Source: an uncultured bacterium
Lineage (GTDB): Bacteria; Patescibacteriota; Minisyncoccia; Phycocordibacterales; GWA1-40-21
Length of the DNA: 64,000 nucleotides
NCBI GenBank assembly: GCA_963716205.1
Contig: OY970290.1
Coordinates: 303,417-367,416, forward strand
Direction: 5' to 3'
The notes under the pieces were generated by a model. The model was not told the DNA's origin. It made no database searches and was given only the letters and a program-made list of their open reading frames with translations. How positions within the stretch are numbered: position 1 is the stretch's first letter; every line of letters starts with the position of its first letter. The position numbers and the translations under genes were made by a program. This document shows, one piece after another, positions 5,264 to 56,379 of this stretch.

Positions 5264-6439
5264 ATGACAAAGAAAAACAAAACAAAAAAAGCGAAAATTT
5301 CAAAAAAACCGGCGGTCAAAAAACCGGTAAAAAAAGTTTCAGCCAAAATGCCTAAAATGTCTGCCAAGAAAAAAGAATGGGAAGTCAAAGCAGAGAAGCT
5401 TATTGCTAAAGGCAAGGAGCGCGGTTTTATCACCTACGATGAAATTTTGAAGGAATTTCCGAAAGTTGAGGACGATGTCATTTTTCTCGATGATTTATAT
5501 AATAAATTTGTCGTTGCCGGACTTGATGTTTTGGAAGGCGGCGGCTTGCTTGAGACGAATGATGATCAGATTAAAAAATACGCCTATGGCGGACGCTCAT
5601 CGGACGCCGGTTATGATTCCATTCAGATATATTTGAAAGAAATCGGCCAGTATCCGCTCATCAGTGCCTCGATGGAAAAAGATTTGGCGAGAAAAATTCT
5701 TGCCGGAGATATGGAGGCAAAAAATCTTCTGGCAAAGGCAAACTTGCGCCTCGTTGTTTCCATTGCCAAAAAATACGTCGGTAGGAGCGCTGACTTGACC
5801 CTTTTGGACTTGATTCAGGAAGGCAATCTTGGTTTGTTTAAAGCTGTTGATAAATTTGACTGGACAAAAGGTTTTAAATTTTCAACCTACGCGACGTGGT
5901 GGATCCGCCAGGCCATTACTCGCGCCCTTGCCGACCAGTCTCGTACGATCCGCGTGCCGGTGCACATGGTGGAAACGATTGCAAAATACAAGCAAGTCTA
6001 CCGCAGACTTTCGCAGGATTTGGGTAGAGAGCCATTGCAGGATGAGATCGCGACTGAAATGGGGCTTGATGTGGAAAAAGTTTACATGATTGAAAAGATT
6101 GATCAGGACACATTATCTCTAGAAAATCCTGTCGGTGATGATGATGATGGCAAGTCCACACTTGGTGATTTTGTCGCCGATGACAAGATACTTTCTCCGG
6201 ATCAGGAATCTTCCCGCAGAATTCTTTCCGATCAGGTCAAGGAAATTCTCAATGACCTTTCGCTCAAAGAACGGAAAATTCTTGAGATGCGACATGGTTT
6301 AATTGATGGTGTCACTCACACACTTGAAGAAGTTGGCTTGGAATTCGGCGTTACCCGCGAGCGTATCCGCCAGATTGAAGCCAAAGCACATGAAAAAATC
6401 CGCCAGCATGAAAAAATAGGGAAGTTGCAGAGTTATTAA
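5264..6439 (+). CDS. rpoD: RNA polymerase primary sigma factor (sigma-70 family) with Lys-rich N-terminal extension
   Basis: Region 2-4 signatures: [54 protein letters not shown]; [20 protein letters not shown] (region 4 HTH); directly downstream of dnaG. Confidence 0.92.
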
Positions 6440-42211: not shown

Positions 42212-42295
42212 AGGCCAATTGTATCAGACTGAAAATAAAAAGTCATTCAAATTTTAGAAAATAAAAAAGCCCATCTTTTGACGGGCTTTTGTGCT

Positions 42296-42515: not shown

Positions 42516-45500
42516 TTATCGCACCAGCACAAATCCTTTTTCGGCATCAAGTTTTTTGAAAAGAACATATTTTGAACCAAGTTTCAGTCTTGAAAAATTG
42601 TTCTGTATGATCACCTCACTTGGTATTTTTTCCAGTCCGCCATATTGTTTTTTCAACTTTTCTCCTATTCCAAGTATTTCTTTTTCATTTGCGAGAATTT
42701 TCTTATCTTCGCTATTCAGATCAATTTCATACTTTTTACCACCAATTTCAAACTCACTTATTACTTTTCTAGAATCGCTCAATGTAGCTTTTTTCTTTGA
42801 AATCTTGAGTGCGTCCCTATTCCACGATTTTTCTCCTGCGACCATTTCCGATGTGCTAGCATCCAAATCTTTTTCCTTTTGTAGTGTCACGAACATGGAG
42901 CGATAATTGCTTCCGTGCAGAGCCTCTCCGGTATACTCGTCCACAATTTTAAAACCCAAATCTTTTGTCAACGACTTAAAACTATCGAAATCCTTAAAAT
43001 CAAGCGAGTAAATCATGTTCATGACGAATGATCCGCCCAATTTCAATACTCTGTTCATTTCAGAAAGTACCTTTAGACGTTCGTTATTTCCTTTGATTGG
43101 TTCAGCGGTGTAATGGAATGATAAGCATAAGTTCGTGAAATCGAATGACTTATTTGCGAATGGTATATTCAAGAAACTGCCGGCAACATTTTTTGCACCT
43201 TCGCTTTTCTCACTAGTAAAATGGCGCTCGTTCATATCCATACTGACAATATTATTCTGTAAGTTGTCAGCAATATGTCGTTTGAGCATCTCCGGACCTG
43301 AGGCCACATCAAGAATTTTCACGTCTTTCATTTCTTTATCTTTTATTAGATGCTCAATAATGGATCCTGAGACCCTGTTTGCGTTCGCTTGGTAATTTCT
43401 ACTACCCATATCGAGATAGGCTTCGGCATATTCATCCCCATGCTTTGCGATAAATTCGGAAAAGTCTGATTCACTTACTGATTTTACCGAACGGAAAATA
43501 CGAAATAATTTATCAAAACTCGAAAGATAAAAACGAGCAAGTTCGGCGTTCACGCTGAGATCTGCTGTGCCTTTTTCACTTTCTTTCAAGATTTCTTTTT
43601 CAATCTCTGTGACAGGTATTCCCTTGAGTAATTTTTCAACCGCCTTTTCTTTGATATCAATATATCGATGTATTCCCTCTTCAATAGAATCAGGGACGAT
43701 AGAGGTGACAACATCGAGATCATTTTTCATACCGACACGATATACACGGGATCGTTCCTGTCGTTCCTCGCTTTTCGTCCACGGTTCGTTATAGAACAAA
43801 ACGCTTTCGCCAGCTGAATAATCAACGCCGACTCCGGCAGTCTGCCCGCTAACCACGAGCAATATTTTTCCATCTCCATTTTTAAATTGTTCTTGAATCC
43901 TATCTCTTTCTTCCTTTTCTGTTTCTCCATGGACGATAAGAATTTTAACATCCTCTGGTAAATGAAAATTGTTTAATATCGATTTATCTCCCCGAATAAC
44001 ATCTTCCACGTAGTCGTTTACAAACATAAGAACTTTATTTTTCTGCTTGAATGTTTCGTTTAGATCCTGACCAACGGTTTCCGCTTTGATATTTTTGACC
44101 CCTGGGGTTGCTTCAAGTAATTCTGGGTTCAAAAGGAATTTTCGCATTACCTGAATTTTTTCCGTCGGCGAGAGAGAATCTTCCTCAAGAAGAAGTTCAT
44201 AGATACTTCTTTCATTTTCCGAAAGTCTGCTAAGCAGTACTCTCTCAATCATCTGGGGCATTTCGATATGCTCAGCCAGACTTTTCATTTGCATCTTGTT
44301 GACAAGCAACTTTCTTAATTCGGTGATATCACCGTTGATGATCGAACTAACAAGGTTTTTGTTTTCCATCTTTTCATACTTTTCCGGGTAGAGAAGTTTG
44401 AGTAGCATCGCAACATCCTGAATTTTGTTCGGAACCGGAGTACCGGAAAGAAGCGCCAGATATTGATCCTCTGTTTTTATCATGTCAGCAAGTATAATGG
44501 CGTTCTCCGCACGCACTCCTTCCTTCACATTCTTTATTTCATGCACTTCGTCAATGATCAACATGTCATAACCGATATCGTGCAATTTTTTCGTATTCTC
44601 GGCATTCAGTCTTTCCTGGGAAATCAACACGTAATCGAGATTCTCCCTATCCAAATTGTCCAGATCAAAAATGTTTTCTATGGTCAGGATTTTTGGCGCT
44701 TGTCCTGGTTTGAAATATCCAACTTGTTTCCCGTCCCCCGATACTTCGTCCGAAAGATATTTTTGCCATGTGCTTAACACATTACTTGGAGCTACAATTA
44801 AGCCAAGTTTTACGCCTAAACATTCTTTGGCAAGTATGGCAGAAGCGCTTTTGCCAACTCCCATTTCATCGGCAATAAGCAGACGCTTTTTGTCGGCAAT
44901 TTCCTTAATATTGATAGATTGGTAAATGTCAGGAAAATTCCTGTTTTCCTGAACATTATCAATCAATCGGTCTGGTTTTTCAAAACCGTGATCAACTGAT
45001 CTATAATAGTCCATCGTCGATTGAATAACCTCATCAAGTTCTGAACTGTTGAGTTTTTTGTTTTCATCCGAAATCTTGTTAAAAAATTCTCCAAAAATAA
45101 CTTTATCTGAATCAATTCTTTTATTTCTTTTTTCACCAAGATAATATTGAAGCGCAGAATCCTTCAATACCTCAAAAAGACCCGCTTTCAAATCTTTCTC
45201 TTTTATCAAATTAGATGAGACAGCGTACTCAAGATTTTCGGTATTAAATGGTATTCTGAGAAGTAAATAGTTACCAAGATATTCCGATATGATCTTATTT
45301 GCTTTTTCGACAGGTAAACCCTTGAAGTCTGGGTGCTGGGCGTACAATACGTCCAAAAAGCGTGAGGAACCGAATAAGCCGACTAATTTTCCAAATTTTT
45401 TCGCTTCTTCCGATTCACCCTTTCCTATATCCTCACATTTTACCTTTAATTCTTTTTCCAAATTTTCCTGAGAGTTTTTTTCATTCAATGATTCTTCGCG

Positions 45501-45653
45501 AAGTAGTTTCATTACTTCTTCTTGTGCTTCCGGAGAAAGAAACAAAGTTTTTTTACCGTTTTTTCCACGAAAATAGTCGTATTTTTTCCCAGAGTTCTCC
45601 GGATTTGATTGGGTTGATTCAATCGTATTATTAAAGGGTATTTTTTCGCTCAT
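42516..45653 (-). CDS. SNF2-family helicase fused to C-terminal class-I SAM-dependent methyltransferase domain
   Basis: SNF2_N motifs (LLIADEMGVGKS; MLIIDEVHEIKN), helicase-C region, then ILDVASGPEM...LKLGGSFVM (MTase motifs I/post-I); 1045 aa; last gene of 4-gene operon. Confidence 0.8.
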   Translation of the reverse strand: MSEKIPFNNTIESTQSNPENSGKKYDYFRGKNGKKTLFLSPEAQEEVMKLLREESLNEKNSQENLEKELKVKCEDIGKGESEEAKKFGKLVGLFGSSRFLDVLYAQHPDFKGLPVEKANKIISEYLGNYLLLRIPFNTENLEYAVSSNLIKEKDLKAGLFEVLKDSALQYYLGEKRNKRIDSDKVIFGEFFNKISDENKKLNSSELDEVIQSTMDYYRSVDHGFEKPDRLIDNVQENRNFPDIYQSINIKEIADKKRLLIADEMGVGKSASAILAKECLGVKLGLIVAPSNVLSTWQKYLSDEVSGDGKQVGYFKPGQAPKILTIENIFDLDNLDRENLDYVLISQERLNAENTKKLHDIGYDMLIIDEVHEIKNVKEGVRAENAIILADMIKTEDQYLALLSGTPVPNKIQDVAMLLKLLYPEKYEKMENKNLVSSIINGDITELRKLLVNKMQMKSLAEHIEMPQMIERVLLSRLSENERSIYELLLEEDSLSPTEKIQVMRKFLLNPELLEATPGVKNIKAETVGQDLNETFKQKNKVLMFVNDYVEDVIRGDKSILNNFHLPEDVKILIVHGETEKEERDRIQEQFKNGDGKILLVVSGQTAGVGVDYSAGESVLFYNEPWTKSEERQERSRVYRVGMKNDLDVVTSIVPDSIEEGIHRYIDIKEKAVEKLLKGIPVTEIEKEILKESEKGTADLSVNAELARFYLSSFDKLFRIFRSVKSVSESDFSEFIAKHGDEYAEAYLDMGSRNYQANANRVSGSIIEHLIKDKEMKDVKILDVASGPEMLKRHIADNLQNNIVSMDMNERHFTSEKSEGAKNVAGSFLNIPFANKSFDFTNLCLSFHYTAEPIKGNNERLKVLSEMNRVLKLGGSFVMNMIYSLDFKDFDSFKSLTKDLGFKIVDEYTGEALHGSNYRSMFVTLQKEKDLDASTSEMVAGEKSWNRDALKISKKKATLSDSRKVISEFEIGGKKYEIDLNSEDKKILANEKEILGIGEKLKKQYGGLEKIPSEVIIQNNFSRLKLGSKYVLFKKLDAEKGFVLVR

Positions 45654-45702
45654 ATAGCTATTATTAACGGTGTTTGATAAAAACGCAAGTTCAAATTATC
45701 GA

Positions 45703-47136
45703 CTAGTCACCTTTTAGTCTTTTTAAAATTTTTTTCTTATCGAGACCAGTTTCTTCTGCAATATTATCTAAAGATACCCAACCTTGTGGAGGTTCTGGCG
45801 TTAATTTTTCATCAATAAGTTCAACTAATTTTGGTGAATAATAATATGCCATAGCACCGCCCTTAGGATTTCTGAACATTCCCCTTTCTTTTTCAAGATC
45901 AGAGTTTTTTTCAATCAATCTATCGACAGTTTTTGTAATAGTCAAACTGTTAGCTTTTCTTTTTTCTTTGAGATTTAGTAATGACATCCAATTTTCTGGA
46001 GCCTCTAATATTAAATCTTTCTCAAAAAGTCTGATTAGTTCGGGAGAATAAAAATATGTTACAGGCCCACCTTTTGGATTTTTAAATATCCCCCTTTCTT
46101 TCTCAAGATTGGGATTTTTCTCGATCAATCTCTCAATTACCCCATCGATTCCTGTTCTGCTTATTTTTATTATTTTTAATTTTTCGTGAAGATCCAATGC
46201 TGGTATCCAATTTTCAGGGGCTTCAGGCATCAAGTTCTCATCAATAAGTTCGATTAGTTTGGGTGAATAGTAGAGCGATTTCAACCCATTTGGATTTCTA
46301 AACATTCCGGTTTCCTTCTCAAGCTCAGGGTTATTTCCAATTAATTCATTAATCACCCTTTCGATTGCAACTCTGCTAAACTTTATTTTCTCTTTAAGAA
46401 AACTAGGCATAGATATCCAATTTTCAGGTGCCTCAGGCACCAAGTTCTCATCAATAAGTTCGATTAGTTTAGGTGAAAAATATATAGTGGGCATTCTATT
46501 TTCGTTCGTAAATACTCCCTTTTCTTTCTCAAGTTCAGGAGTTTTTTCAATTAATCTATCAACTATTCCTTCGATCGCCTTTCTACCTAATTTTGGTTTT
46601 TCCTTGAGAAGGCTTGGGAATGATACCCAATCCTTTGGAGATTCTTGATTTAATTTTTTTATTTTATCTTCAATCAATTTCACTAATTCTGGTGAGTAAT
46701 GAATAACTGATTTTCCGGCACTTGGTGAACGAAACATTTTAATATTTTCTTCCGCTTTCAATTTTCCGTCTGATTCATCAATGATTTGTTCAGCATATTT
46801 TCTAACAGTCGATTGATCAATATCATATCTGTCTATAATTGCAGTTTGTGTTGTCCAATCTTTTGGTGCGTCTTCAGTCAAATTTTTCTCAACTAATTCT
46901 ACAATTGCTGGTGAAAAATAAAATGACTTCCCCGTTTCTGAATTTCTAAATATCCCCCTCTCACTTTCAAGTTCTGGAAATTTTTCAATTAATCTATTGA
47001 CTAATCCATTGAACGCAGTTTTTTTGAGATTAAATCTTTTCTTAAGATCAGGTGTAGATACCCAATTTTCCGGAGCCTCCGTTGCTTCGGGTTTTTGTTC
47101 TGACTCAAAATTGTTTGTAAGGAATTTTTCTGACAT
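45703..47136 (-). CDS. Tandem-repeat protein (~6 copies of a ~70-aa HTH-like module)
   Basis: Repeat consensus PE(A)PE-W-s-L-sL-EK-g-sk--I---a-KIIEES-G-L-K--E-G-F-S-K-g-P--YySPkLVELIE--L; 477 aa. Confidence 0.7.
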   Translation of the reverse strand: MSEKFLTNNFESEQKPEATEAPENWVSTPDLKKRFNLKKTAFNGLVNRLIEKFPELESERGIFRNSETGKSFYFSPAIVELVEKNLTEDAPKDWTTQTAIIDRYDIDQSTVRKYAEQIIDESDGKLKAEENIKMFRSPSAGKSVIHYSPELVKLIEDKIKKLNQESPKDWVSFPSLLKEKPKLGRKAIEGIVDRLIEKTPELEKEKGVFTNENRMPTIYFSPKLIELIDENLVPEAPENWISMPSFLKEKIKFSRVAIERVINELIGNNPELEKETGMFRNPNGLKSLYYSPKLIELIDENLMPEAPENWIPALDLHEKLKIIKISRTGIDGVIERLIEKNPNLEKERGIFKNPKGGPVTYFYSPELIRLFEKDLILEAPENWMSLLNLKEKRKANSLTITKTVDRLIEKNSDLEKERGMFRNPKGGAMAYYYSPKLVELIDEKLTPEPPQGWVSLDNIAEETGLDKKKILKRLKGD

Positions 47137-47141
47137 AGATT

Positions 47142-49016
47142 TTAAATATTGTTTCCTTTAATTATCCTTTTTATTTTTTCTTTACTTATTCCGATTTTTT
47201 CCGACAAAGAATCTATACTCTCCCATCCTTTTGGGGCTTTTTCTGGTAAATTTTTCTCAATTAGTTCAATTAGTTTTGGAGAAAAGTATGTTGCGGGTAA
47301 ACCACTTTTTTTAGAGGCAAACATTTTTTCTTCTTTTCCCAATCCATTGTTCGATTCCTCAATTATTTTCTTGGCTATACCCTTAATTATGGAGACACTG
47401 ACATTATTTTTTTCTGCAATCGAAACCAAACTTATCCATCCTTCAGGACTCTGCTGAGGAAGACTTTGTTCAACTAAATCAACTAATTTTGGCGAAAGAA
47501 ATAATGTAGATTTGTTATTCTCAGAAAAGAATATACCCGCTTCTTTTCCGAGTTTCCCCTTCGATTCTTCAATTATTTTTTCAGATCTACTTTTAATTGT
47601 ATTTGGATCAACTTGATTTTTTTTTGCTATAGAAGCTATACTTAACCACCTATCAGGTGCTTCGTGCGGTATTTTTTTTTCAATCAATTCCACTAATTTG
47701 GGAGAGTAATATATTGCTGGCGGACCCATTTTTTTAGCAGAAAATTTTTTCATTTCCTCATTAAGTTTTCCATCTGATTCATTGATTATTTTTTGAGCAA
47801 TATTTTCAATAAACCCCTTACTGATTGAATATTTATTTACAAAGAAATTCGAGTCAGCCCATCCATAAGGAGCTTTCTCGGATAAATCTTCTTCAAGTAA
47901 TCTGACTAGTTTGGGCGAATAATATGATGTTGGAGGACCCTTCTTTTTAGAAAAAAATATTCCTGATTCTTCATCCTCTTTAAGATTCCCGTTTGATTCC
48001 TCGATTATTCTATTAACCTTATATGCAATTCCTGTTTTTGTAACTCCATATTTTTCCGCTAGAGAAATCAGATCTATCCACCCAATAGGTGGTTCTTGGG
48101 GTAGAATCCTTTCTATTGATTCTACTACTTTTGCCGAATAATATTTTGTTGGTTTATGGTTTTTGGCCCAAAATATCCCTGTATCCTTTTCTTCCGAAAG
48201 CTCACCTTTTGACTCCTCAATTATTTTTTTTGCTCTATTTTCATATGCTATTCTACTAATTCCATATTTTTTAGTTAGAGAAATTATATCAGACCATCCC
48301 TCAGGCGCTTTTTCAGGTAAGTCTCTTTCAATTAATTCTACCAGTCTAGGTGAATAATACATTGTTAGATTGCCGGACTTCTTAGACGAGAACATTCCAA
48401 CATTTTCGATTTTTTTGAGATTTTCATTTGAATCCCCAATTATTTTTTGAGCTAAATTTTCAATCGTTTTTTTATTTATTCTGTGTTTTTCAGCAAAAGA
48501 AATCCGATCGACCCATCCATCAGGTGCTTCGTGCGGTATTTTTTTTTCAATCAATTCCACTAATTTGGGAGAGAAAAAAGTTGATGGTTCATTATTTATT
48601 TTTGATGGAAACATTGACCTTTCTTTTTCTAGATTTCCATTTGACTCCTCAATTATTTTTTCAACAATTTTTATAATAGTGGGCATACTAATCCCGTATT
48701 TTTGTACTACAGATGTCATACTCACCCATTCCCCAGGTGCTCTTTTGGGTAGTTTTTTTTCAATTAATTCCACGAGTCTAGGTGAATAATATACTGCAGT
48801 AGGAATTTTTTGTGATGAAAATATCCCAATATCGTCTTTTTTAGTAAGACTTCCGTTCGATTCCCCAATTATTTTTTGAGCCAAATTTTCAATTAGTCCT
48901 CTACCAAATCCATACTTTTCTGTAAGAGAAACCAACATTTGCCATCCATCCGGAGATTCTACTGCTTCCGGTTTTTGTTCTGGCTCAAAATTGCTTATAG
49001 GAAATTTTTCTATCAT
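47142..49016 (-). CDS. Tandem-repeat protein (~9 copies of the same ~70-aa module)
   Basis: Same repeat; N-terminus MIEKFPISNFEPEQKPEAVESPDGW paralogous to neighbours; 624 aa. Confidence 0.7.
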   Translation of the reverse strand: MIEKFPISNFEPEQKPEAVESPDGWQMLVSLTEKYGFGRGLIENLAQKIIGESNGSLTKKDDIGIFSSQKIPTAVYYSPRLVELIEKKLPKRAPGEWVSMTSVVQKYGISMPTIIKIVEKIIEESNGNLEKERSMFPSKINNEPSTFFSPKLVELIEKKIPHEAPDGWVDRISFAEKHRINKKTIENLAQKIIGDSNENLKKIENVGMFSSKKSGNLTMYYSPRLVELIERDLPEKAPEGWSDIISLTKKYGISRIAYENRAKKIIEESKGELSEEKDTGIFWAKNHKPTKYYSAKVVESIERILPQEPPIGWIDLISLAEKYGVTKTGIAYKVNRIIEESNGNLKEDEESGIFFSKKKGPPTSYYSPKLVRLLEEDLSEKAPYGWADSNFFVNKYSISKGFIENIAQKIINESDGKLNEEMKKFSAKKMGPPAIYYSPKLVELIEKKIPHEAPDRWLSIASIAKKNQVDPNTIKSRSEKIIEESKGKLGKEAGIFFSENNKSTLFLSPKLVDLVEQSLPQQSPEGWISLVSIAEKNNVSVSIIKGIAKKIIEESNNGLGKEEKMFASKKSGLPATYFSPKLIELIEKNLPEKAPKGWESIDSLSEKIGISKEKIKRIIKGNNI

Positions 49017-49023
49017 ATAATTA

Positions 49024-51558
49024 TTAGGATATATTTTTATTAATAATCCTTCTAATTTTCTCCGCGTCTATTTTAGTATTTTTTGCAAGTGTCTCTACAC
49101 TAGTCCAACCTTCAGGGGGTTGATCAAGGGTTTCTCGGGAAAATTTTTCATTAATTAGCTCAACTAATCTTGGCGAATAATATATGGCAAGCCCACCAGA
49201 AGATCGAAACATTCCCATATCCATACTTTCCTTCAATTTTCCGTTCGATTCCAGGATTATCTTTTCAGCTGTATTTTTAACCGTGCTTGGATTAAATCCA
49301 TATTTTTTTGCGAGTGACACCCTGTCCATCCAATTTTCTGGTGCCTTCTTGGGCAGTCCTTGTTCGATCAATTCAACCAGTTTTGGTGAAAAATATGTTG
49401 TTAACCTATTATTACTTTTTTTTGACGGAAAAACACCGATTTCTTCATCCTCCTTCAATTTTCCGTTCGATTCATTAATTATTTTTTTAACTCGTTTTTG
49501 GATCGTCAATCTATTAACTTCATATTTTTCCATAAGGGAAACCATATCAGACCATCCCATTGGTGCTTCTTTGGGCAATCCTTGTTCGATTAATTCAATT
49601 AACTTTGGTGAGAAACATGTGGTAGGCATACCACTCTTTTTTGATCGAAATATTCCCATTTCATCCTCTTCCTTGAGTTCACCCTTTGACTCTTCAATTA
49701 TTTTTTTTGCTTTACGTTGAATATACTGATTATCAGTATTATATTTTTCCGCTAGAGATGCCAAATCCGCCCAATCTTTTGGGGCTTCTTTTAGTAAATC
49801 CTTCTCGATTAATTTAACTAATCGTGGTGAAATATATATTGAAGGTCTCTTACTTTTTTTTGACAGGAAAACACCCATTTCGTCTTCTTTCTTGAGCTCT
49901 CCATTTGATTCCTCAATTATCTTTTTAACCCTACCCTCAATTTTTGTTCTACTAGAATCATCTTTTTCTGAGAAAGAAAGCATACTTATCCATCCTTCTG
50001 GAACTTCTTTAGGTAAATTTTTTTCAACTAGTTCAACTAATTTTGGTGAGAGGTATACGGACGGAGGACCACCTTTGGGGGAAGGATAAATTCCCATCTC
50101 CTCATCTTTTTTGATCTTTCCGTTCGATTCTTCAATTATTTTTTTTATTCTATTTTTAATAGTGCTTTTATCTGCTCTACTTTTTTTTGTAACGGAACCT
50201 AAATCCAGCCATCCTTCGGGTACTTCCTTGGGTAGTCTCTGCTCAATCAATTCAATTAGTTTGGGTGAGAAATACATAGTTAACCTATTACGTTTTTTTG
50301 ATGGGAACATACCCATCTCATTGTCTTTTTTGAGTTCCCCCCCTGATTCCTCAATTATTTTTTTGGCCCTGTTTTCAATTATTGTTTTATCTATCCCATA
50401 TTTCTCTGTAAGTGGAATTATACTTATCCATCCATCAGGAGTTTTTTCAGGCAACTGTTGTTTAATCAATTCAACCAATCTTGGTGATAAATGCATGGAA
50501 GGACTACCGTTTTTATTCGAGGGGAAGATTCCCATCTCCTCATCTTTTTTGATCTTTCCGTTCGATTCTTCAATTATTTTTTGGGCTCTGCTTACAATCA
50601 TTGTTGCACCAAATCCGTATCTTTCCATAAGAGAAGATAAATCGGTCCAACCTTCAGGTGCATCTTTCGGCAATTCTTTTTTAATGAGTTCTGCAAACTC
50701 AGGAGAGAAATATGTTGTGGGATAACCACTTTTTTTAGCAGGAAAGGTCCCCATTTTTTTCGCAAGTTTTCCGTTCGATTCCTCGATTATTTTTTGGGCT
50801 CTATTCTCGACTATTGATCTGCTAGTTTTGTATTTTTTTAAAAAAGAAATTAGGTCTATCCATCCTTCGGGGGCTTCTTTCGGTAAATTTTTCTCGACCA
50901 ATTTAACTAACTTTGGTGAGTAATATATCGCTAATCCCCCAGGAGATCGAAACAACCCCGTTTCTTCACCTTCTTTCAGTTCTCCGTTTGATTCCTCAAT
51001 TGTTTTTTGTATTCTTCTTTTAAGAACATTCTCACCAACAGCATATTTTTCCATAAGCGTAGGCGTGTCTACCCAACTCATAGGGGCCTCGTTCGGCAAT
51101 TCTTTTTTAATGAGTTCTGCAAACTCAGGAGAGAAATATGTTCCGGGCACCCTACCCCTTTTAGACATAAATTCCCCAACCTCTTCAGTGAGATTTCCGT
51201 TTGATTCTTGAAGTAATTTTTTAACCCTCTTTTCAATAGTTCCTCTGCTGAGTTTATGCTCCTCAGCAAAAGAAACTAAATCTATCCATCCTTTTGGTGC
51301 TTCCTTAGGTAGATTTTTTTCTATTATCTCTGTCAACTTAGGTGATAAGTATTTTGCCGGTTTACCACCGTTTTTAGATTTAAACATCCCTATTTCCTCT
51401 GCTATTTCTCCGCTCGATTCCTCAACTATTTTCTGGACCCTTCTTTCGATTACACCCTTATCAAATCCAAATTTTTCTGCGAGAGAGGTTATATCTGTCC
51501 ATTCTTCAGGAGCTTCCTGAATTGACTCATTTGAATTAAATGGAAATTGTTCAGTCAT
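49024..51558 (-). CDS. Tandem-repeat protein (~12 copies of the same module); start moved to MTEQFPFNSNES by homology with paralogues
   Basis: 12 repeats, e.g. PEGWTDLSSLMERYGFGATMIVSRAQKIIEESNGKIKKDEEMGIFPSNKNGSPSMHLSPRLVELIKQQLPEKT; ORF extends to 51753 but upstream 65 aa are non-repeat and unlike paralogue N-termini. Confidence 0.7.
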   Translation of the reverse strand: MTEQFPFNSNESIQEAPEEWTDITSLAEKFGFDKGVIERRVQKIVEESSGEIAEEIGMFKSKNGGKPAKYLSPKLTEIIEKNLPKEAPKGWIDLVSFAEEHKLSRGTIEKRVKKLLQESNGNLTEEVGEFMSKRGRVPGTYFSPEFAELIKKELPNEAPMSWVDTPTLMEKYAVGENVLKRRIQKTIEESNGELKEGEETGLFRSPGGLAIYYSPKLVKLVEKNLPKEAPEGWIDLISFLKKYKTSRSIVENRAQKIIEESNGKLAKKMGTFPAKKSGYPTTYFSPEFAELIKKELPKDAPEGWTDLSSLMERYGFGATMIVSRAQKIIEESNGKIKKDEEMGIFPSNKNGSPSMHLSPRLVELIKQQLPEKTPDGWISIIPLTEKYGIDKTIIENRAKKIIEESGGELKKDNEMGMFPSKKRNRLTMYFSPKLIELIEQRLPKEVPEGWLDLGSVTKKSRADKSTIKNRIKKIIEESNGKIKKDEEMGIYPSPKGGPPSVYLSPKLVELVEKNLPKEVPEGWISMLSFSEKDDSSRTKIEGRVKKIIEESNGELKKEDEMGVFLSKKSKRPSIYISPRLVKLIEKDLLKEAPKDWADLASLAEKYNTDNQYIQRKAKKIIEESKGELKEEDEMGIFRSKKSGMPTTCFSPKLIELIEQGLPKEAPMGWSDMVSLMEKYEVNRLTIQKRVKKIINESNGKLKEDEEIGVFPSKKSNNRLTTYFSPKLVELIEQGLPKKAPENWMDRVSLAKKYGFNPSTVKNTAEKIILESNGKLKESMDMGMFRSSGGLAIYYSPRLVELINEKFSRETLDQPPEGWTSVETLAKNTKIDAEKIRRIINKNIS

Positions 51559-51655
51559 ATGACTACGGTATAACAAATTTGCCGAAAATGCAAATAAAAA
51601 CTTGCATAAAATATTAATGTATGTTATGGTAAAGCCCGAAAGAGAGGTGTACCTT

Positions 51656-51973
51656 ATGGATCTCATATCAGTTTCTTCGACGAAGTTTCGCAACAAGGAG
51701 GATGGAACTGAGTTCACGGTTGTCAAAGCCAAACGCTTTGAGAAGCATAACATCAGGAAATACAGACAGTACCTGATGTCACTCTCAGACGGAAAGCTCG
51801 TGGGCGTTTACTTCTACGGCCAACTGGTGCCCCTCATCACCGTAACTACCGGTGTCGAGAAGCTCACCCAGGTGACCGTCGGGAAAAAACTGCTACGTAC
51901 GGCAGCCGAGATAAGCAAGGCCCTGGGAATCAAGAAACCCAAAAAGCCCGTTCCGCTTGTTCTCGTTTCGTAG
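51656..51973 (+). CDS. Hypothetical protein (GC-rich, RBS AGAGAGG, strong terminator)
   Basis: MDLISVSSTKFRNKEDGTEFTVVKAKRF...; 106 aa; visibly higher GC than surroundings. Confidence 0.5.
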   Translation: MDLISVSSTKFRNKEDGTEFTVVKAKRFEKHNIRKYRQYLMSLSDGKLVGVYFYGQLVPLITVTTGVEKLTQVTVGKKLLRTAAEISKALGIKKPKKPVPLVLVS

Positions 51974-51993: not shown

Positions 51994-52033
51994 CGCACTC
52001 ATGACTTATGGTCGTGAGTGCGTTTTATTTTTT
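51994..52033 (+). terminator. Rho-independent terminator
   Basis: CGCACTCATGAC-TTATG-GTCGTGAGTGCG then TTTTATTTTTT. Confidence 0.65.
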
Positions 52034-52389: not shown

Positions 52390-53634
52390 TTATAAAAACA
52401 ACAAATCTCGATCAAGATCATCCGAATCCGTTCCCTTCTCCTTGTGCCCCATAGCTTTGTGAGTAGAAGCCAGATAGACGACGTTTTTTCCAAATTTCTC
52501 CTCAAGAGAATCGATACGCTCGTGAATCAGTTTGAATTTATCCGATTGATTGCTGTTGCCGAACAGGTCTTTCTGCGAGACGGAATCGGGAATGAGATCC
52601 TCGAGGATCACTCCCGTCGTGCGATATGGAACACCTTTTGTATGTACTGTCTTGAAGCGTTCTCGAATCAAAGGAATGAGTATTTCAGGAGAATTTGTCG
52701 GTGAAGGAAGCATGACAGAGCAAGTTGAATACTTGAAACCGCTTGTTTTGAGGAAGAATGAAAATTTCTTGGCGGCAAGTTTATAATGTCTTGCCTTTCT
52801 ACAGGCTTCCTCCGCATGCTTGGAGAGTTGAGAAAGAAGAAACTCCATGTCGTTTGTTGCTGGGTGGAATGTTCTTGTTTTTTGAATGGATGAATAGCTA
52901 GTCTTCGGATTCGAATCTATTTCCATGACGGAAACCCCGTTGAGTTCCTGCCACATGGTTTCATACGGTTTGGAAAGATTCTCCCTGATCCAATCAATAT
53001 TCTTTTGCGCCAGATTGAGTGCGGTATAAATCTTCTTGTTTTTTAGATACTCCGCTGTCTTTGGTCCTATGCCCCATATCTTTTCAATGGGAGTTTTTGT
53101 GAGGAAGTCGGATATCGTTTCTTTTTCAATCACGGTCAATCCATTCGGTTTGACCCACTTTGAGGCAACCTTGGCAAGAACTTTGGTTGGTGCAAGCCCG
53201 ACTGAAATGGAAAGTCCCAATTCGTCGGCAATTTCTTTCTTGATGCGCTGCGCTATTTCCTTGTATGTCATTTTGAGCGGCTTATCAAGACCCGTCAGAT
53301 CGGCAAAGCACTCATCGATGCTGTATTCTTCAATGTCGTCTGCATATCTGCGAACGATATCAAACATCATGCCGGAATAGCGGACGTATGATTTATAATC
53401 CCCTGGCAGGATAATGACATTGGGGTAATCCCTCTTGATCCGAAAGATCGGCATGCCACGCCTGATACCAAGAGCTTTGGCTTCATACGAGAATGCGGAT
53501 GCGATTCCCCGCTCCTCGCCCGTGACAACGGGAAGGCCTTTGAGTTTCGGATTCTTCGCCATTTCCACGCCGACAAAGAATGCGTCTCCGTCCATGTGAA
53601 GAATGACTTTATTTTTTGGAATTTTGTTGGACAT
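52390..53634 (-). CDS. dinB: Y-family DNA polymerase (DinB/UmuC-like, error-prone translesion polymerase)
   Basis: ILHMDGDAFFVGVE (catalytic Asp palm motif), SIDECFADLTG, little-finger region; 414 aa. Confidence 0.88.
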   Translation of the reverse strand: MSNKIPKNKVILHMDGDAFFVGVEMAKNPKLKGLPVVTGEERGIASAFSYEAKALGIRRGMPIFRIKRDYPNVIILPGDYKSYVRYSGMMFDIVRRYADDIEEYSIDECFADLTGLDKPLKMTYKEIAQRIKKEIADELGLSISVGLAPTKVLAKVASKWVKPNGLTVIEKETISDFLTKTPIEKIWGIGPKTAEYLKNKKIYTALNLAQKNIDWIRENLSKPYETMWQELNGVSVMEIDSNPKTSYSSIQKTRTFHPATNDMEFLLSQLSKHAEEACRKARHYKLAAKKFSFFLKTSGFKYSTCSVMLPSPTNSPEILIPLIRERFKTVHTKGVPYRTTGVILEDLIPDSVSQKDLFGNSNQSDKFKLIHERIDSLEEKFGKNVVYLASTHKAMGHKEKGTDSDDLDRDLLFL

Positions 53635-54085: not shown

Positions 54086-54868
54086 TTGGGAAAACATCAT
54101 TTAATCTGTGGAAGCGCTCTCGATCCAAAAATCGTGGAAAAGCTCATGGATGGCGCAAAGGCGGATTTAATTGATGATGATGTCCCATTCAATATTCGGC
54201 TTCCGTACGATAAATATGGCGGAACATATGAAGATGACAAGACAGACGAAGAATATGAGACGTTTGTGAAGACAATCATGCAGAACGCCCTATCGGTGGC
54301 CAAGAATGATGCACATATCGTTTTTTGGTGCGATGAGCGATACGTTTGGTTACTGGAAGTGCTTTATAAAAAATTCAGGATTGATTCAAAGAGGCTCCTT
54401 GTTTGGTGTAAAAACAATTCGTCGCCGACTCCGAGTTGCGCCTTCAACAAAGTGACGGAGTTTGCAGTGTACGGAACTATAGGAACTCCATTTCTTGCCC
54501 AAAATATCACTAATCTGAATCAAATTCAGAATCACGAGATGACGACCGGCAACAGCTTGCACGATGAGATCATGGATTTCTTCAATATCATGCTCACCAA
54601 AAGGTTACCGAGCAACAAATACGAACATTCGGCACAAAAAGATCCGTCCATCCACTACAAAGTTCTGAAAAGATGCACACGGGTCGGAGACGTTGTTTTG
54701 GATCTCACGGCGGGCACGGGAAGTCTCTTGATAGCATGCGAACAATTAAAGAGAATCGCCTACGTATGCGAACTTGATCCAAAGTTCTGCCAGCTCATCA
54801 TCAATCATTACGAAGCGCTTACGGGCGATAAGGCTAAACTGATCCACTCCGATGAAACAACGAATTAA
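54086..54868 (+). CDS. Beta-class DNA methyltransferase (N6-adenine or N4-cytosine)
   Basis: N-terminal HHLICGSALDP...ADLIDDDVPFN (motif IV, DPPY-like) followed by C-terminal VLDLTAGTGSLLIA (motif I, FxGxG) = circularly permuted beta-class order; 260 aa. Confidence 0.8.
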   Translation: MGKHHLICGSALDPKIVEKLMDGAKADLIDDDVPFNIRLPYDKYGGTYEDDKTDEEYETFVKTIMQNALSVAKNDAHIVFWCDERYVWLLEVLYKKFRIDSKRLLVWCKNNSSPTPSCAFNKVTEFAVYGTIGTPFLAQNITNLNQIQNHEMTTGNSLHDEIMDFFNIMLTKRLPSNKYEHSAQKDPSIHYKVLKRCTRVGDVVLDLTAGTGSLLIACEQLKRIAYVCELDPKFCQLIINHYEALTGDKAKLIHSDETTN

Positions 54869-55463
54869 AGCCCCGTTTCTCGAGGAATTGAGAAAAATTC
54901 CTATCATCAAGATGACTACTGATAAATTGGGTATATCGAGGAACACAATCTATCGCTGGATGAAGCTAAACAAGAAATTCAAAGATGATGTTCATGAGGC
55001 GCTCATGGAAGGAGAAAAAAATCTCAATGAAATGGTTGAGTCAATGCTCGTGAAAAAGGCGCTCAACGAGGAGGACCTGCGTGCAATAATGTTTTATCTC
55101 ACTCGCAGGCATCCAAAATACAAGCAAAGCATTGAAAATTCCAAACAAATTTCCGAAACAGAAAGCTCACTCGACATTGCGGAGAGAAATATCCGATCAC
55201 TGCTCAAACGGGGAGACAAAGACATCACCAAGTTTGTCTTGGAAAGATCAAAACCTGATGTGTACAGAAAAATACCTGCAGATGAATTGCGAGAGAATCA
55301 AGCGGAAGCAGAGCGATTGAGAGAACTTGAAAGAATCAGTAAAACGACCGAACCATGGGACAGTCTGAAACAGCATTCAAAAAAGTACATACTGATGATG
55401 AGAGAAGCTGAAAAGAAAATCCGAGAAGAAAAATCGGACACCGAAGAAATAGATAAAAAATAA
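54852..55463 (+). CDS. HTH-domain protein (terminase-small-subunit-like / possible R-M controller)
   Basis: N-terminal HTH (TTDKLGISRNTIYRWMKLNKKF), charged coiled-coil C-terminus; overlaps MTase stop by 17 nt; 203 aa. Confidence 0.45.
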   Translation: MKQRIKAPFLEELRKIPIIKMTTDKLGISRNTIYRWMKLNKKFKDDVHEALMEGEKNLNEMVESMLVKKALNEEDLRAIMFYLTRRHPKYKQSIENSKQISETESSLDIAERNIRSLLKRGDKDITKFVLERSKPDVYRKIPADELRENQAEAERLRELERISKTTEPWDSLKQHSKKYILMMREAEKKIREEKSDTEEIDKK

Positions 55464-56240
55464 TTATTCGAGAATGGCATTTAATATATCCATTCTTGCT
55501 TGTACGTTTGGCATGTCAGCATCTACAGTTTTTACTCCCCCATTCATCAGTTCTCTGAGATAAAGTGAAACCGAAAATATACCGAGTGTTTTAAACGGTG
55601 TTTGTATGTTTTCATTGTGCAAATCTGAAACGGAAATATGGGAAAAAGGTTTAAGGTTATTGTCTTTTGATATCGGCATCCAATAGATGATGACGGGTTC
55701 TGCAATGACATTTTCATATGATTTGGGTTTTTTCATTTCAACCAATACTTTAGTCACATTGTTGGGAAATGTTTTATCGGAGAAAGATTTCAATTGCTGT
55801 TGCCAATAATATTCCGCAACTTTAATCGTCTCGTCTCTATCAATTGTTAATTTTTGACCAAAAGAATTGTAAGCTCCTATTTTTGGGCAAGGCTTACCAG
55901 ACCAAGAATACCTATTTTCTCTTTCGATATTAGGTGCACCAAAAATACTCAAAAATTCATCTCGAGTTAGTATTTTATCTTTTCCTTTCCATATGCCGTA
56001 TTTAGGCGACCAATCACCAAAAGTTGTCTTACCTGTAGTATGGTTTTTCATTTCAAAACCATCTATATCAGGTGTATTACTTGCATTATGAGCAACACCC
56101 ATTTGTGTTTCAAGCCAATGACCACCCCTACCATCATGTCCTTGATTGGAAGTTGATGTATTAGGAACTCTACCTTTTACATTCTTCAGAAAAAGATTAA
56201 TGATCTTTTCTTTTATTTTTTTAGTTTCTGTTGCAGTCAT
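55464..56240 (-). CDS. Hypothetical protein; candidate type II restriction endonuclease by context (convergent on MTase/HTH pair)
   Basis: No recognised family; assignment by position only; 258 aa. Confidence 0.3.
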   Translation of the reverse strand: MTATETKKIKEKIINLFLKNVKGRVPNTSTSNQGHDGRGGHWLETQMGVAHNASNTPDIDGFEMKNHTTGKTTFGDWSPKYGIWKGKDKILTRDEFLSIFGAPNIERENRYSWSGKPCPKIGAYNSFGQKLTIDRDETIKVAEYYWQQQLKSFSDKTFPNNVTKVLVEMKKPKSYENVIAEPVIIYWMPISKDNNLKPFSHISVSDLHNENIQTPFKTLGIFSVSLYLRELMNGGVKTVDADMPNVQARMDILNAILE

Positions 56241-56308
56241 TCCGCTATATTAGCAAAAAAGAACATTAAAGGCGATATTTAATGCGACTTGATTACTGCT
56301 CAACTCGG

Positions 56309-56379
56309 CTGGGGGACTAGGAATCGGACCTAGATTAAAAGCTTCAAAGGCTTCTGTCCTACCGTTAGACGATCCCCCA
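56309..56379 (-). tRNA. tRNA-Gln (anticodon UUG)
   Basis: Manually folded on the minus strand. Acceptor UGGGGGA/UCCCCCA is a perfect 7 bp. U8, D-stem GUCU/GGAC and D-loop with GG are present. Anticodon stem GAAGC/GCUUU with loop CUUUGAA gives U33 and anticodon UUG. T-stem is CUAGG/CCUAG. The T-loop UCCGAUU carries the non-canonical C55. Discriminator is G. Confidence 0.6.

What the first reader, a model, noticed from the sequence alone, without database searches (positions are those of the whole stretch)
42516..51558. Four-gene operon: SNF2 helicase-methyltransferase fusion plus three giant tandem-repeat HTH-like proteins (possible undescribed system)
Four minus-strand genes are separated by only 7, 5 and 49 nt, so they are almost certainly co-transcribed. 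The three upstream genes are paralogues (477, 624 and 844 aa) with near-identical N-termini (MSEKFLTNNFESEQKPEATEAPENW, MIEKFPISNFEPEQKPEAVESPDGW, MTEQFPFNSNESIQEAPEEW). They are built almost entirely from ~27 copies of a ~70-aa unit. Each unit (W-x-x-L-x-S-L-A-E-K-Y-G-x-S-x-x-x-I-x-N-R-A-x-K-I-I-E-E-S-N-G-x-L ... G-x-F-x-S-K-K-x-G-x-P-x-x-Y-Y-S-P-K-L-V-E-L-I-E) looks like a helix-turn-helix plus wing, reminiscent of MerR/excisionase (AlpA/Xis, HTH_17)-type DNA-binding modules joined by Pro/Glu-rich linkers. The last gene fuses an SNF2 DNA translocase to a class-I SAM methyltransferase. Tens of nucleic-acid-binding modules combined with an ATP-dependent translocase and a methyltransferase is not an arrangement I recognise from characterised systems such as R-M, BREX, DISARM or Dnd. 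It could be a novel defence or DNA-organising/epigenetic system, or a mobile-element maintenance module.
Basis: partly seen in the sequence, partly recalled or inferred. Interest (0 to 1): 0.9.

Follow-up and report, generated by a model that had tools for sequence, protein, structure and literature searches.

The report
SNF2-methyltransferase with detachable winged-helix arrays
This is a real four-gene operon from an uncharacterised, CPR/Patescibacteria-restricted family in which a DNA-motor/methyltransferase fusion works with long chains of small DNA-binding modules (here split off into three separate genes); its domains are familiar, but the combination has no described function.

Summary
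Four minus-strand genes (gaps 7, 5 and 49 nt, one terminator after the last) encode three paralogous repeat proteins and an SNF2 ATPase fused to a class-I methyltransferase. The repeat proteins hold 25 full ~70-aa units plus 3 truncated C-terminal ones.

A modelled unit (pLDDT 86) is a MerR/Xis-type winged helix-turn-helix.

The link between the repeats and the enzyme is strong. The same unit family is fused to the N-terminus in 59 of 120 close homologues. Every unfused homologue with readable upstream DNA (8 loci plus this window) has 2 to 6 or more array genes directly upstream.

Related loci sit among housekeeping genes (rpoBC, nusA-infB/rpsO-pnp, the dcw cluster). No defence model, curated family or paper describes the module.

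Best reading: a DNA-anchored, translocation-coupled methyltransferase with a chromosomal housekeeping role. The arrays are its detachable DNA-binding arm. The methylation substrate and the biological role remain inferred.

The parts
49024..51558 (-). Array protein R844: N-terminal leader, 11 full winged-helix units and 1 truncated C-terminal unit (HTH half only)
   Evidence: ORF and unit parsing; unit HMM finds 12 units; public gene call is 844 aa (P0122); pI 9.0
47142..49016 (-). Array protein R624: leader, 8 full units and 1 truncated C-terminal unit
   Evidence: 47% identical to R844; pI 9.0
45703..47136 (-). Array protein R477: leader, 6 full units and 1 truncated C-terminal unit; most diverged paralogue ('RLIEKNPELEKE' variant of the unit)
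   Evidence: 37% identical to R624; pI 5.8
42516..45653 (-). Core enzyme: SNF2-family ATPase fused to an Rrp8/nucleomethylin-like class-I SAM methyltransferase and a conserved C-terminal domain
   Evidence: Pfam; 120 or more homologues at 43-49% identity over more than 90% of its length, all CPR/Patescibacteria where named
45492..45611 (-). Core residues 15-54: remnant second half of a unit (wing plus last helix, 'GKKYDYFRGKNGKKTLFLSPEAQEEVMKLL'). It is complementary to the truncated units at the C-termini of the array proteins.
   Evidence: Partial HMM matches: core N-terminus covers unit positions 30/32 to 58/72, array C-termini cover positions 1 to 26/29. The same pattern occurs in Saccharibacteria locus L009. 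Scores are modest (about 14 bits).
44919..45431 (-). Core residues 75-245: family-specific conserved N-terminal region of unknown fold ('LFGSSR..D.LY...P.F.G.PV')
   Evidence: Conserved in alignments A2 and A5; no Pfam hit and no significant PDB profile match
43731..44894 (-). SNF2 ATPase motor (residues 254-641), motifs I (GVGKS), II (DEVH), III (SGTP) and VI (QERSRVYRVG) intact
   Evidence: Pfam SNF2-rel_dom 1.8e-17 and Helicase_C 4e-14; closest solved relative by profile is Sulfolobus SSO1653 Rad54-like ATPase 1z63, E 3.6e-24; motifs
42876..43364 (-). Class-I SAM methyltransferase domain (about residues 764-926), motif I ILDVASG; Rrp8/nucleomethylin-like
42519..42806 (-). Conserved C-terminal domain (about residues 950-1045) that always follows the methyltransferase in this family; function unknown
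   Evidence: Conserved in A3; modelled with pLDDT mostly 78-95 in one compact model, pTM 0.86; the MTase plus C-terminal module is found only at the C-terminus of SNF2 proteins of 1000 aa or more, or in fragments
42265..42290 (-). Intrinsic-terminator-like hairpin (11 pairs plus T-run) that closes the operon

Best explanation
The operon encodes one molecular machine of a CPR/Patescibacteria-specific family. The core is an SNF2-type double-stranded-DNA translocase fused to an Rrp8/nucleomethylin-like SAM methyltransferase.

Its DNA-binding arm is a chain of MerR/Xis-type winged-helix modules. In most relatives this chain is the N-terminal part of the same polypeptide. Here it has been split off and multiplied into three separately translated paralogous proteins with 6, 8 and 11 full modules.

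**Proposed mechanism (inferred).**
- The arrays lie along DNA and hold it multivalently. They act like a covalent version of the head-to-tail filaments formed by the structural relatives Xis, BldC, RacA and pSK1 Par.
- The anchored motor pulls or twists DNA relative to the anchor. This clears or exposes a substrate that the methyltransferase then modifies. The substrate could be a base in DNA or nascent RNA, or a DNA-bound protein.
- The array proteins probably dock on the core. One candidate interface is their truncated C-terminal unit paired with the complementary half-unit at the core's N-terminus. If so, three alternative arms could serve one motor.

The genomic setting points to a chromosomal housekeeping role (chromosome organisation or a transcription-linked mark) rather than phage defence.

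**Shown:** gene structure, selection on the genes, the fold of the unit, the fusion and adjacency link, the type of methyltransferase, and the housekeeping contexts.

**Inferred:** DNA binding by the arrays, docking on the core, coupling of the motor to methylation, the methylation substrate, and the biological role.
For: - **Rosetta-stone link.** An HMM of the window's unit finds 1-12 units at the N-terminus of 59 of 120 closest homologues, and of 54 of the 84 that are 1200 aa or longer. The other 30 long homologues carry different tandem small-module arrays in the same position, of the HTH_17/MerR, HNH_repeat or another type.
- **Adjacency.** Of the 15 true family loci among species-representative genomes, 10 have the same unit fused. 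Three have other arrays fused. One (L012) is a fused gene broken by an in-frame stop and a frameshift. One (L009) is a true split with 3 upstream array genes.
- **Split loci.** Every unfused homologue with readable upstream DNA has 2 to 6 or more co-oriented, tightly packed upstream genes with 61-80-aa periodicity and no Pfam hit: L082/L083, L084, L085, L086, L088, L089.
- **Variability pattern.** Variability concentrates in helix 1, the turn and the first half of the predicted recognition helix, while the scaffold is conserved.
- **Selection.** Long open frames and dN/dS about 0.33 indicate purifying selection on the arrays.
- **Active-looking enzyme.** ATPase and SAM-binding motifs are intact and invariant across the family.
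- **Complementary half-units.** They occur at array C-termini and the core N-terminus in two distant lineages, the window and L009.
- **Context.** Homologous loci have housekeeping neighbours. Defence libraries match only the generic helicase core.
Against: - No experiment or direct sequence evidence shows that the arrays bind DNA. They are only mildly basic or even acidic (pI 9.0, 9.0 and 5.8), and fused arrays range from pI 5.4 to 8.7.
- The docking idea rests on partial HMM matches of about 14 bits. It could simply reflect where an ancestral fused gene broke.
- Other split loci use a different conserved C-terminal tail ('..A.E.LWKLLEV') instead.
- Rapid turnover of array type and copy number is also what a conflict system would show.
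- The family is not universal in CPR. No such gene appears in the searched gene tables of the cultivated Saccharibacterium studied by Tn-seq.
- Only 151 clusters at 50% identity were found.
Confidence: 0.5

Rival explanations
1. It is an anti-phage or anti-plasmid defence system, related in logic to DISARM, BREX or Zorya. The arrays recognise foreign DNA, the SNF2 motor tracks along it, and the methyltransferase marks self.
For: - SNF2 helicases paired with methyltransferases are typical of DISARM and BREX.
- PADLOC gives partial hits to ZorD, DpdE, BrxH and DrmD over the helicase core.
- The arrays vary fast in module type and copy number, and array genes are expanded to as many as six or more paralogues, as in arms-race genes.
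- A type II R-M-like gene pair lies 2.5 kb away in the window.
Against: - All defence-model hits cover only the generic ATPase and are far below curated cut-offs: DrmD 29 against 610 bits, ZorD 28.6 against 1500, DpdE 32 against 500.
- No partner genes are present (DrmA/B, PglX/Z, ZorA/B) and no nuclease or other effector domain.
- The methyltransferase is not a DNA-methylase type.
- Related loci sit inside core housekeeping clusters, not defence islands.
- The core enzyme is conserved at 43-49% identity across distant CPR classes.
Confidence: 0.15
2. It acts on RNA or ribonucleoprotein. The Rrp8-like domain would methylate rRNA (for example m1A) or another RNA during ribosome biogenesis or transcription. 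The motor and arrays would serve as assembly or remodelling factors.
For: - The best relative of the methyltransferase by sequence and structure is Rrp8/nucleomethylin, the m1A645 25S rRNA methyltransferase (PMC3553958).
- In some genomes the module sits between nusA-infB and rpsO-pnp, or next to rpoBC-rpsL-rpsG.
Against: - From general knowledge of the family, SNF2 motors track double-stranded DNA, and the closest solved relatives are DNA translocases.
- The array modules resemble DNA-binding winged helices that were solved on DNA.
- Neighbourhoods differ between genomes (cell-wall cluster, ABC transporter), so the association with translation genes is weak.
Confidence: 0.12
3. It is a RapA-like transcription factor. 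The SNF2 motor would bind RNA polymerase and recycle or dislodge stalled complexes, with the arrays tethering it to the template.
For: RapA is the classical bacterial SNF2 protein (PMC8501970). Two related loci lie directly upstream of rpoB-rpoC. There is a weak NCBIfam RapA hit.
Against: - The RapA hit scores 23.7 bits against a 576-bit cut-off and covers only the ATPase core.
- The N-terminal conserved region shows no resemblance to any solved structure by profile search.
- RapA has neither a methyltransferase nor arrays.
Confidence: 0.1
4. The three upstream genes are non-functional leftovers of partial 5' duplications of a once-fused gene, and only the core enzyme matters.
For: All four genes share the same leader. 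The array genes end in truncated units, as expected from duplication breakpoints. Locus L012 shows a fused gene broken by an in-frame stop and a frameshift.
Against: - The open frames of 477-844 codons have chance probabilities of 2e-18 to 5e-32, and dN/dS is about 0.33.
- The paralogues have diverged to 37-47% identity without acquiring stops.
- The split arrangement recurs in at least 8 other loci from several lineages.
Confidence: 0.03

Closest known systems
Prokaryotic SSO1653/Rad54-like SNF2 ATPases (solved example: Sulfolobus solfataricus 1z63)
   Same: This is the best solved sequence relative of the motor (E 3.6e-24). All ATPase motifs are present, so a dsDNA-translocase mechanism is expected.
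   Different: The present family adds a conserved ~170-aa N-terminal region, a C-terminal methyltransferase with an extra domain, and N-terminal or separately encoded winged-helix arrays.
Rrp8 / nucleomethylin (Pfam Methyltransf_8; PDB 2zfu)
   Different: The Pfam Methyltransf_8 score (22.2 bits) is below the 27-bit cut-off. Rrp8 is a free-standing eukaryotic nucleolar enzyme, not fused to a motor. The substrate here is unknown.
MerR-superfamily winged helices that multimerise on DNA: RacA, BldC, pSK1 Par, Xis/TorI excisionases (Pfam MerR, HTH_17)
   Same: The fold of one unit matches. From the literature as I recall it, these proteins bind DNA as head-to-tail or clustered multimers. A covalent chain of units would mimic that arrangement. 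Some homologues carry true HTH_17/MerR-scoring repeats in the same position (P0085).
   Different: Here 6-12 modules are joined in one polypeptide by Pro/Glu-rich linkers, and each has an extra C-terminal helix. No Pfam HTH family reaches its threshold on the window's units. DNA binding is untested.
DISARM (DrmD with DrmMI), BREX (BrxHI/II with PglX), Zorya ZorD and Dpd DpdE
   Same: They contain SNF2-type helicases, sometimes together with a methyltransferase. PADLOC and NCBIfam give partial hits over the helicase core.
   Different: All hits are far below cut-offs. The partner genes are absent. The methyltransferase is of a different class. There is no nuclease. The genomic context is housekeeping.
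Fungal DNMT5 (SNF2 ATPase fused to a C5 DNA methyltransferase) - from my own knowledge, not tested here
   Same: One polypeptide joins an SNF2 motor and a methyltransferase. In DNMT5 ATP hydrolysis is coupled to methylation, which is the mechanistic precedent for the coupling proposed here.
   Different: DNMT5 carries a C5-cytosine DNA methyltransferase domain and is eukaryotic. Here the domain is Rrp8-like, and arrays of winged helices are added.

Membership tests
SNF2 family ATPase (Pfam SNF2-rel_dom plus Helicase_C) | Both lobes score above Pfam gathering thresholds | tested here: met
   SNF2-rel_dom 63.8 bits (cut-off 24.9); Helicase_C 53.2 bits (cut-off 23.5)
SNF2 family ATPase (Pfam SNF2-rel_dom plus Helicase_C) | Catalytic motifs I (GxGK[ST]), II (DExH), III and VI (arginine fingers) are present | tested here: met
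   GVGKS at 265, DEVH at 368, SGTP at 403, QERSRVYRVG at 632; these columns are invariant in A2
SNF2 family ATPase (Pfam SNF2-rel_dom plus Helicase_C) | dsDNA-stimulated ATPase and translocase activity | not testable with these tools
   Needs biochemistry
Rrp8 / nucleomethylin methyltransferases (Pfam Methyltransf_8) | Sequence score above the Pfam gathering threshold | tested here: not met
   22.2 bits against a cut-off of 27; homologues carry weak or faint precomputed hits
Rrp8 / nucleomethylin methyltransferases (Pfam Methyltransf_8) | Closest structural and sequence neighbour among solved structures | tested here: met
Rrp8 / nucleomethylin methyltransferases (Pfam Methyltransf_8) | N1-adenine methylation of rRNA | not testable with these tools
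   Needs an activity assay or modification mapping
DNA methyltransferases of R-M, BREX or DISARM (N6_Mtase, N6_N4_Mtase, C5) | Match to a DNA-methylase profile | tested here: not met
DISARM | DrmD equivalog score, plus DrmA and DrmB partners in the locus | tested here: not met
   DrmD 29 bits against 610. The neighbours are array genes, an amidase, an ABC transporter and DinB.
BREX | PglX methyltransferase, PglZ, BrxC and BrxL in the locus | tested here: not met
   Only partial BrxHI/II helicase hits. None of the partner domains is present in the window genes scanned.
Zorya (ZorD) | Full-length ZorD with an Mrr-like nuclease, plus ZorA/ZorB | tested here: not met
   PADLOC hits cover only the helicase part of the ZorD profile. 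NCBIfam ZorD scores 28.6 bits against 1500. There is no nuclease and no ZorAB.
RapA (RNA polymerase-associated SNF2) | RapA equivalog score and a RapA-type N-terminal domain | tested here: not met
   23.7 bits against 576. The N-terminal region has no significant solved relative by profile search.
MerR / HTH_17 (excisionase) winged helix-turn-helix | Fold: strand, helix-turn-helix, beta-hairpin wing | tested here: met
MerR / HTH_17 (excisionase) winged helix-turn-helix | Sequence membership in Pfam HTH_17 or MerR | tested here: not met
   HTH_17 and MerR are not among the Pfam hits on the window's array proteins. The HTH families that do hit (HTH_36, HTH_28, HTH_41 and others) are all below their cut-offs. 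Some homologues (P0085) do carry precomputed PF12728 and PF00376 hits on their arrays.
MerR / HTH_17 (excisionase) winged helix-turn-helix | DNA binding | not testable with these tools
   Needs EMSA, DAP-seq or a structure

The most novel reading that the evidence does not exclude
The array proteins are chromatin-like DNA-coating or DNA-reading proteins of CPR bacteria. The SNF2-methyltransferase would be their dedicated remodeler and 'writer'.

The three arrays would dock interchangeably on the motor by completing a split winged-helix domain: the truncated unit at each array's C-terminus pairs with the half-unit at the enzyme's N-terminus. One motor would thereby get several swappable, long-footprint DNA-targeting arms.

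That would make this a lineage-specific, ATP-driven, targeted nucleic-acid modification system with no described bacterial counterpart.
Probability: 0.15. Interest if true: 0.9.

Novelty: new variant of a known kind. Interest (0 to 1): 0.68.

Why it matters
CPR/Patescibacteria make up a large share of bacterial diversity, and most of their lineage-specific genes have no assigned function. This study defines a conserved, large module with a clear internal logic: a motor, a methyltransferase and a variable multi-module nucleic-acid-binding arm that is either fused or split into up to six or more genes.

If motor and methyltransferase are coupled, it would be a bacterial counterpart of the ATP-dependent methylation seen in eukaryotic SNF2-linked enzymes. 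It would also be a natural example of long, modular DNA-binding arrays built from winged helices.

The recurrent fission into array genes that keep a half-domain offers a directly testable case of protein assembly by split-domain complementation.

If the function turns out to be mundane, the result still corrects the database labels ('UbiE methylase / helicase', 'hypothetical protein') and argues against filing the module as a defence system.

Tried and rejected
- **Defence libraries.** PADLOC and NCBIfam scans of all four proteins matched only the generic helicase or methyltransferase cores, far below cut-offs.
- **Pfam on the array proteins.** This gave only sub-threshold scraps (VMAP-M12, HEPN_Swt1, various HTH families), which I treat as repeat-inflated noise.
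- **Homologue search with R624.** The 5.8-billion-protein search returned only R624 itself and its two window paralogues.
- **Homologue search with a 60-unit profile.** This returned four tiny 1-2-unit proteins. The word index is evidently unsuited to these short, diverged repeats. It cost two of the three searches and did not give the census of other architectures I wanted.
- **The genome-contig scan.** Unrelated Bacillota and Riflebacteria SNF2 genes saturated it, and only 15 of the 80 loci were true family members. Prevalence across CPR could therefore not be estimated.
- **DNA-level repeats.** TRF found no tandem repeat, so recent repeat expansion or an assembly artefact is rejected.
- **Read-through or frameshift fusion.** I rejected this for the window's four genes. 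They are in different frames, and each has its own ATG and conserved leader. Locus L012, by contrast, really is a broken fused gene.
- **Core N-terminal region.** A profile search against the PDB gave nothing significant.
- **Literature.** Searches on SNF2 with Patescibacteria, CPR, Saccharibacteria or Rrp8 found no description of the family; one further search failed on a syntax error. The Saccharibacteria Tn-seq study has no such gene in its tables, so no fitness data exist.
- **Mobile-element reading.** I rejected it because no integrase, transposase or relaxase flanks the operon, and homologues sit in different housekeeping clusters.
Full report
**1. The observation**

- the core enzyme, 42516-45653 (1045 aa);
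- R477, 45703-47136;
- R624, 47142-49016;
- R844, 49024-51558.

The stop-free frame of R844 continues to 51753. The ATG at 51558 nevertheless gives the N-terminus shared with the paralogues, and it is the start used in the public gene call (P0122, 844 aa). The gaps are 49, 5 and 7 nt. Each gene is in a different frame from the one before it, so this is not read-through of one broken gene.

A strong terminator-like hairpin (42290-42265, minus strand) follows the last gene, and there is no strong one inside the operon. A plus-strand terminator at 51994-52022 closes a small divergent ORF upstream. This places the operon's start in the 51559-51601 gap.

Anchoring on the P-x-x-W motif divides the proteins as follows:

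| Protein | Full units (69-76 aa) | Truncated C-terminal units |
|---|---|---|
| R844 | 11 | 1 |
| R624 | 8 | 1 |
| R477 | 6 | 1 |
| Total | 25 | 3 |

The repeats are not a DNA-level tandem repeat, since TRF finds nothing. Units are on average 42% identical in protein and 57% in DNA. Median dN/dS is about 0.33. Open frames of this length have chance probabilities of 2e-18 to 5e-32 at this composition. These are old, selected coding repeats.

Pfam confirms SNF2-rel_dom, Helicase_C and Methyltransf_11 on the core. The ATPase motifs and the SAM-binding motif are intact.

**2. What one unit is**

No Pfam family reaches threshold on the array proteins. An AlphaFold2 model of one unit, built with the 25 units as its alignment, is confident (pLDDT 85.8). 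It shows strand, helix-turn-helix, a beta-hairpin wing and a final helix.

- Foldseek independently ranks RacA-DNA (probability 0.96) and BldC-DNA complexes first, although its E-values are not significant for so small a domain.
- A sequence profile of the unit weakly matches the helix-turn-helix of a winged-helix regulator (3r0a).

Within the unit, variability is highest in helix 1, the turn and the first half of the predicted recognition helix. The second half of that helix, the last helix and the linker are conserved. This fits a fixed scaffold with diversified contact residues, but it does not prove sequence-specific binding. The arrays are only mildly basic or acidic overall (pI 9.0, 9.0 and 5.8).

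**3. The repeats belong to the enzyme**

The core has more than 120 homologues at 43-49% identity over more than 90% of its length. Where a source names them, they come from Levybacteria, Vogelbacteria, Saccharimonadia, Paceibacterota or 'Patescibacteria group'. The exact window protein lies on a 681,747-bp contig, a size typical of CPR genomes.

Most homologues are 1300-1800 aa because they carry an N-terminal extension.
- An HMM of the window's unit, iterated on these proteins, finds 1-12 units in 59 of 120. That includes 54 of the 84 that are 1200 aa or longer. The units always lie N-terminal to the motor (sequences).
- The other 30 long homologues carry different tandem ~65-75-aa modules in the same place:
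  - an HTH_17/MerR-scoring type (P0085, P0021, P0070, P0120);
  - an HNH_repeat (PF18780) type (P0007, P0011);
  - a third type (P0114, P0062).

The variable feature is which small module is used. The constant feature is a long chain of them in front of the motor.

**4. The split arrangement recurs**

Fifteen loci from species-representative genomes were true family members:
- 10 have the same unit fused;
- 3 have other arrays fused;
- 1 (L001) is cut by the contig end;
- 1 (L012) is a fused gene interrupted by one in-frame stop and one frameshift, which is either a pseudogene or an assembly error;
- 1 (L009, Saccharibacteria) is a true split with three upstream array genes of 7, 7 and 4 units.

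Looking up unfused (~1100 aa) homologues gave the same picture every time upstream DNA was available:

| Locus | Upstream array genes |
|---|---|
| L082/L083 (Levybacteria) | 2 (5 and 3 units of the same family) |
| L084 | 6 |
| L085 | 3 |
| L086 | 3 |
| L088 | at least 6 |
| L089 | 2 |

These genes are co-oriented, overlap or nearly abut, lack Pfam hits and show 61-80-aa periodicity.

Within each locus, the array proteins and the core share the same N-terminal leader. In the window it is MSEKF/IP..N..ES.Q, and it is also visible in DNA. In L082 it is MKEFDP.L..SVF, and in L084 it is MSE. In six loci the array proteins also end in a conserved tail of the form '..SP..A.E.LWKLLEV'.

**5. A split unit at the junction**

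In the window, each array protein ends in a truncated unit. This unit matches positions 1 to 26/29 of the 73-position unit profile. Residues 15-54 of the core match positions 30/32 to 58/72, which is the wing and last helix.

The same complementary pattern is present in L009, whose units are of a different sequence subtype. The scores are modest (about 14 bits).

There are two readings:
- a scar of gene fission within a unit, followed by duplication of the array gene;
- a functional split domain through which arrays dock on the core.

**6. The methyltransferase**

I modelled the C-terminal 356 residues with a 16-sequence alignment (pLDDT 85.9, pTM 0.86).
- Rrp8 makes m1A645 in yeast 25S rRNA (PMC3553958).
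- The Pfam Methyltransf_8 score is below threshold (22.2 against 27 bits). The domain is therefore Rrp8-like, not a demonstrated family member.

A profile of this C-terminal module finds 151 clusters (50% identity) at E of 1e-30 or better among 1.84 billion representatives. The matches are always at the C-terminus of SNF2 proteins of 1000 aa or more (up to 2635 aa), or in fragments. The fusion is therefore the defining feature of a moderately large family. The motor's closest solved relative is the Sulfolobus SSO1653 Rad54-like ATPase. The ~170-residue conserved region before the motor has no detectable relative.

**7. Genomic context**

In the window, the operon is flanked as follows:
- downstream: a cell-wall amidase, an ABC transporter, a LUD-domain protein and UppP;
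- upstream: a small unknown ORF, DinB and a type II R-M-like pair.

Elsewhere the module lies directly upstream of rpoB-rpoC-rpsL-rpsG (L084, L085). It also lies between nusA-infB and rpsO-pnp (L086), and inside or beside the mraZ-rsmH-PBP-mur cluster (L082, L089). These are not defence islands or mobile elements. The position is not syntenic, so guilt by association gives no single function.

**8. Interpretation**

The best-supported model treats the four genes as one machine.
- The motor is an SNF2 dsDNA translocase.
- The enzymatic head is an Rrp8-like methyltransferase.
- The nucleic-acid-binding arm is a chain of winged helices. It is detachable here and fused in most relatives.

By analogy with the structural relatives (Xis, BldC, RacA, pSK1 Par), which as I recall assemble along DNA as multimers, a covalent chain of 6-12 modules would hold roughly 100 bp or more of DNA. 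An anchored SNF2 motor would then pump or twist DNA relative to that anchor. The fused methyltransferase would act on something exposed by this motion.

The fungal SNF2-C5-methyltransferase DNMT5 (my own knowledge, not tested here) is a precedent for ATP-coupled methylation. Which molecule is methylated, whether DNA, nascent or ribosomal RNA, or a DNA-bound protein, cannot be decided from sequence.

The rivals are scored in the report sections: defence system, RNA or ribosome factor, RapA-like transcription factor, and non-functional duplicates. The defence reading is weakened by context, by the methyltransferase class and by the absence of any effector or partner genes. Fast array turnover keeps it alive.

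**9. Novelty**

All domains are of known kinds. Database entries exist, labelled 'SNF2-related protein', 'methyltransferase domain-containing protein' or 'UbiE methylase/helicase'.

No curated family (Pfam, NCBIfam, PADLOC) captures the architecture. No paper in the searchable library describes it. No fitness data exist, because the gene tables of the cultivated Saccharibacterium studied by Tn-seq hold no such gene.

I rate it a new variant of a known kind, namely SNF2-family enzymes with accessory domains. The interest is real because the architecture is conserved, lineage-specific and mechanistically suggestive, while its function is open.

Noticed in passing
window 54086-56240 (with tRNA-Gln at 56307-56379): A type II restriction-modification-like cluster. 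It has an N6_N4 DNA methylase (54086-54868, +), an overlapping HTH protein (54852-55463, +) and a LlaMI / MvaI-BcnI-like restriction endonuclease (55464-56240, -), right next to a tRNA-Gln gene. It is separate from the operon studied.
   Followed up: partly
window 51602-51973 (+), terminator 51994-52022: A small 123-aa ORF lies divergent from the operon and is closed by a strong 13-bp-stem terminator. It has no Pfam hit. It overlaps the upstream extension of the R844 stop-free frame, which argues that the extension is not coding.
   Followed up: partly
window 52390-53634 (-): A Y-family DNA polymerase (DinB: IMS, IMS_HHH, IMS_C) lies immediately upstream of the divergent small ORF.
   Followed up: no
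L012 3123-8452: A Paceibacterota homologue is a fused array-core gene interrupted by one in-frame stop codon (4863-4865) and one frameshift (around 5297-5339). This is a pseudogene, an assembly error or recoding; it was not resolved.
   Followed up: partly
L082, L084, L085, L086, L088, L089 (C-termini of the upstream array genes): Accessory array proteins of six loci end in a conserved acidic amphipathic tail ('..SP..A.E.LWKLLEV', 'SPDQADELMRGLEEEI', 'ISPQEAKEEFDKLFE'). It is absent from the window's arrays. It could be a docking peptide, or its conservation could partly reflect the overlapping start and ribosome-binding site of the next gene.
   Followed up: partly
P0242 (JGI contig, no DNA held) and L091 185-562 (P0244): Stand-alone proteins of 125-128 aa with one or two units of the same family occur on short contigs without an adjacent SNF2-methyltransferase. 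One lies next to RNase R, rpsP, KhpA and TrmD. The unit may therefore also exist as an independent small DNA-binding protein.
   Followed up: partly
L004, L005, L007, L013, L015: MAG records titled 'uncultured Gammaproteobacteria' carry this otherwise CPR-only gene. L015 is on a 927,721-bp contig. The taxonomic labels are probably wrong.
   Followed up: no
window 44000-50000: G+C drops to 33-37% and GC and AT skews are strongly negative across the array genes, compared with 40-44% G+C in the flanks. This is most simply explained by the Lys/Glu/Ile/Asn-rich repeat composition on the minus strand rather than by foreign origin.
   Followed up: no
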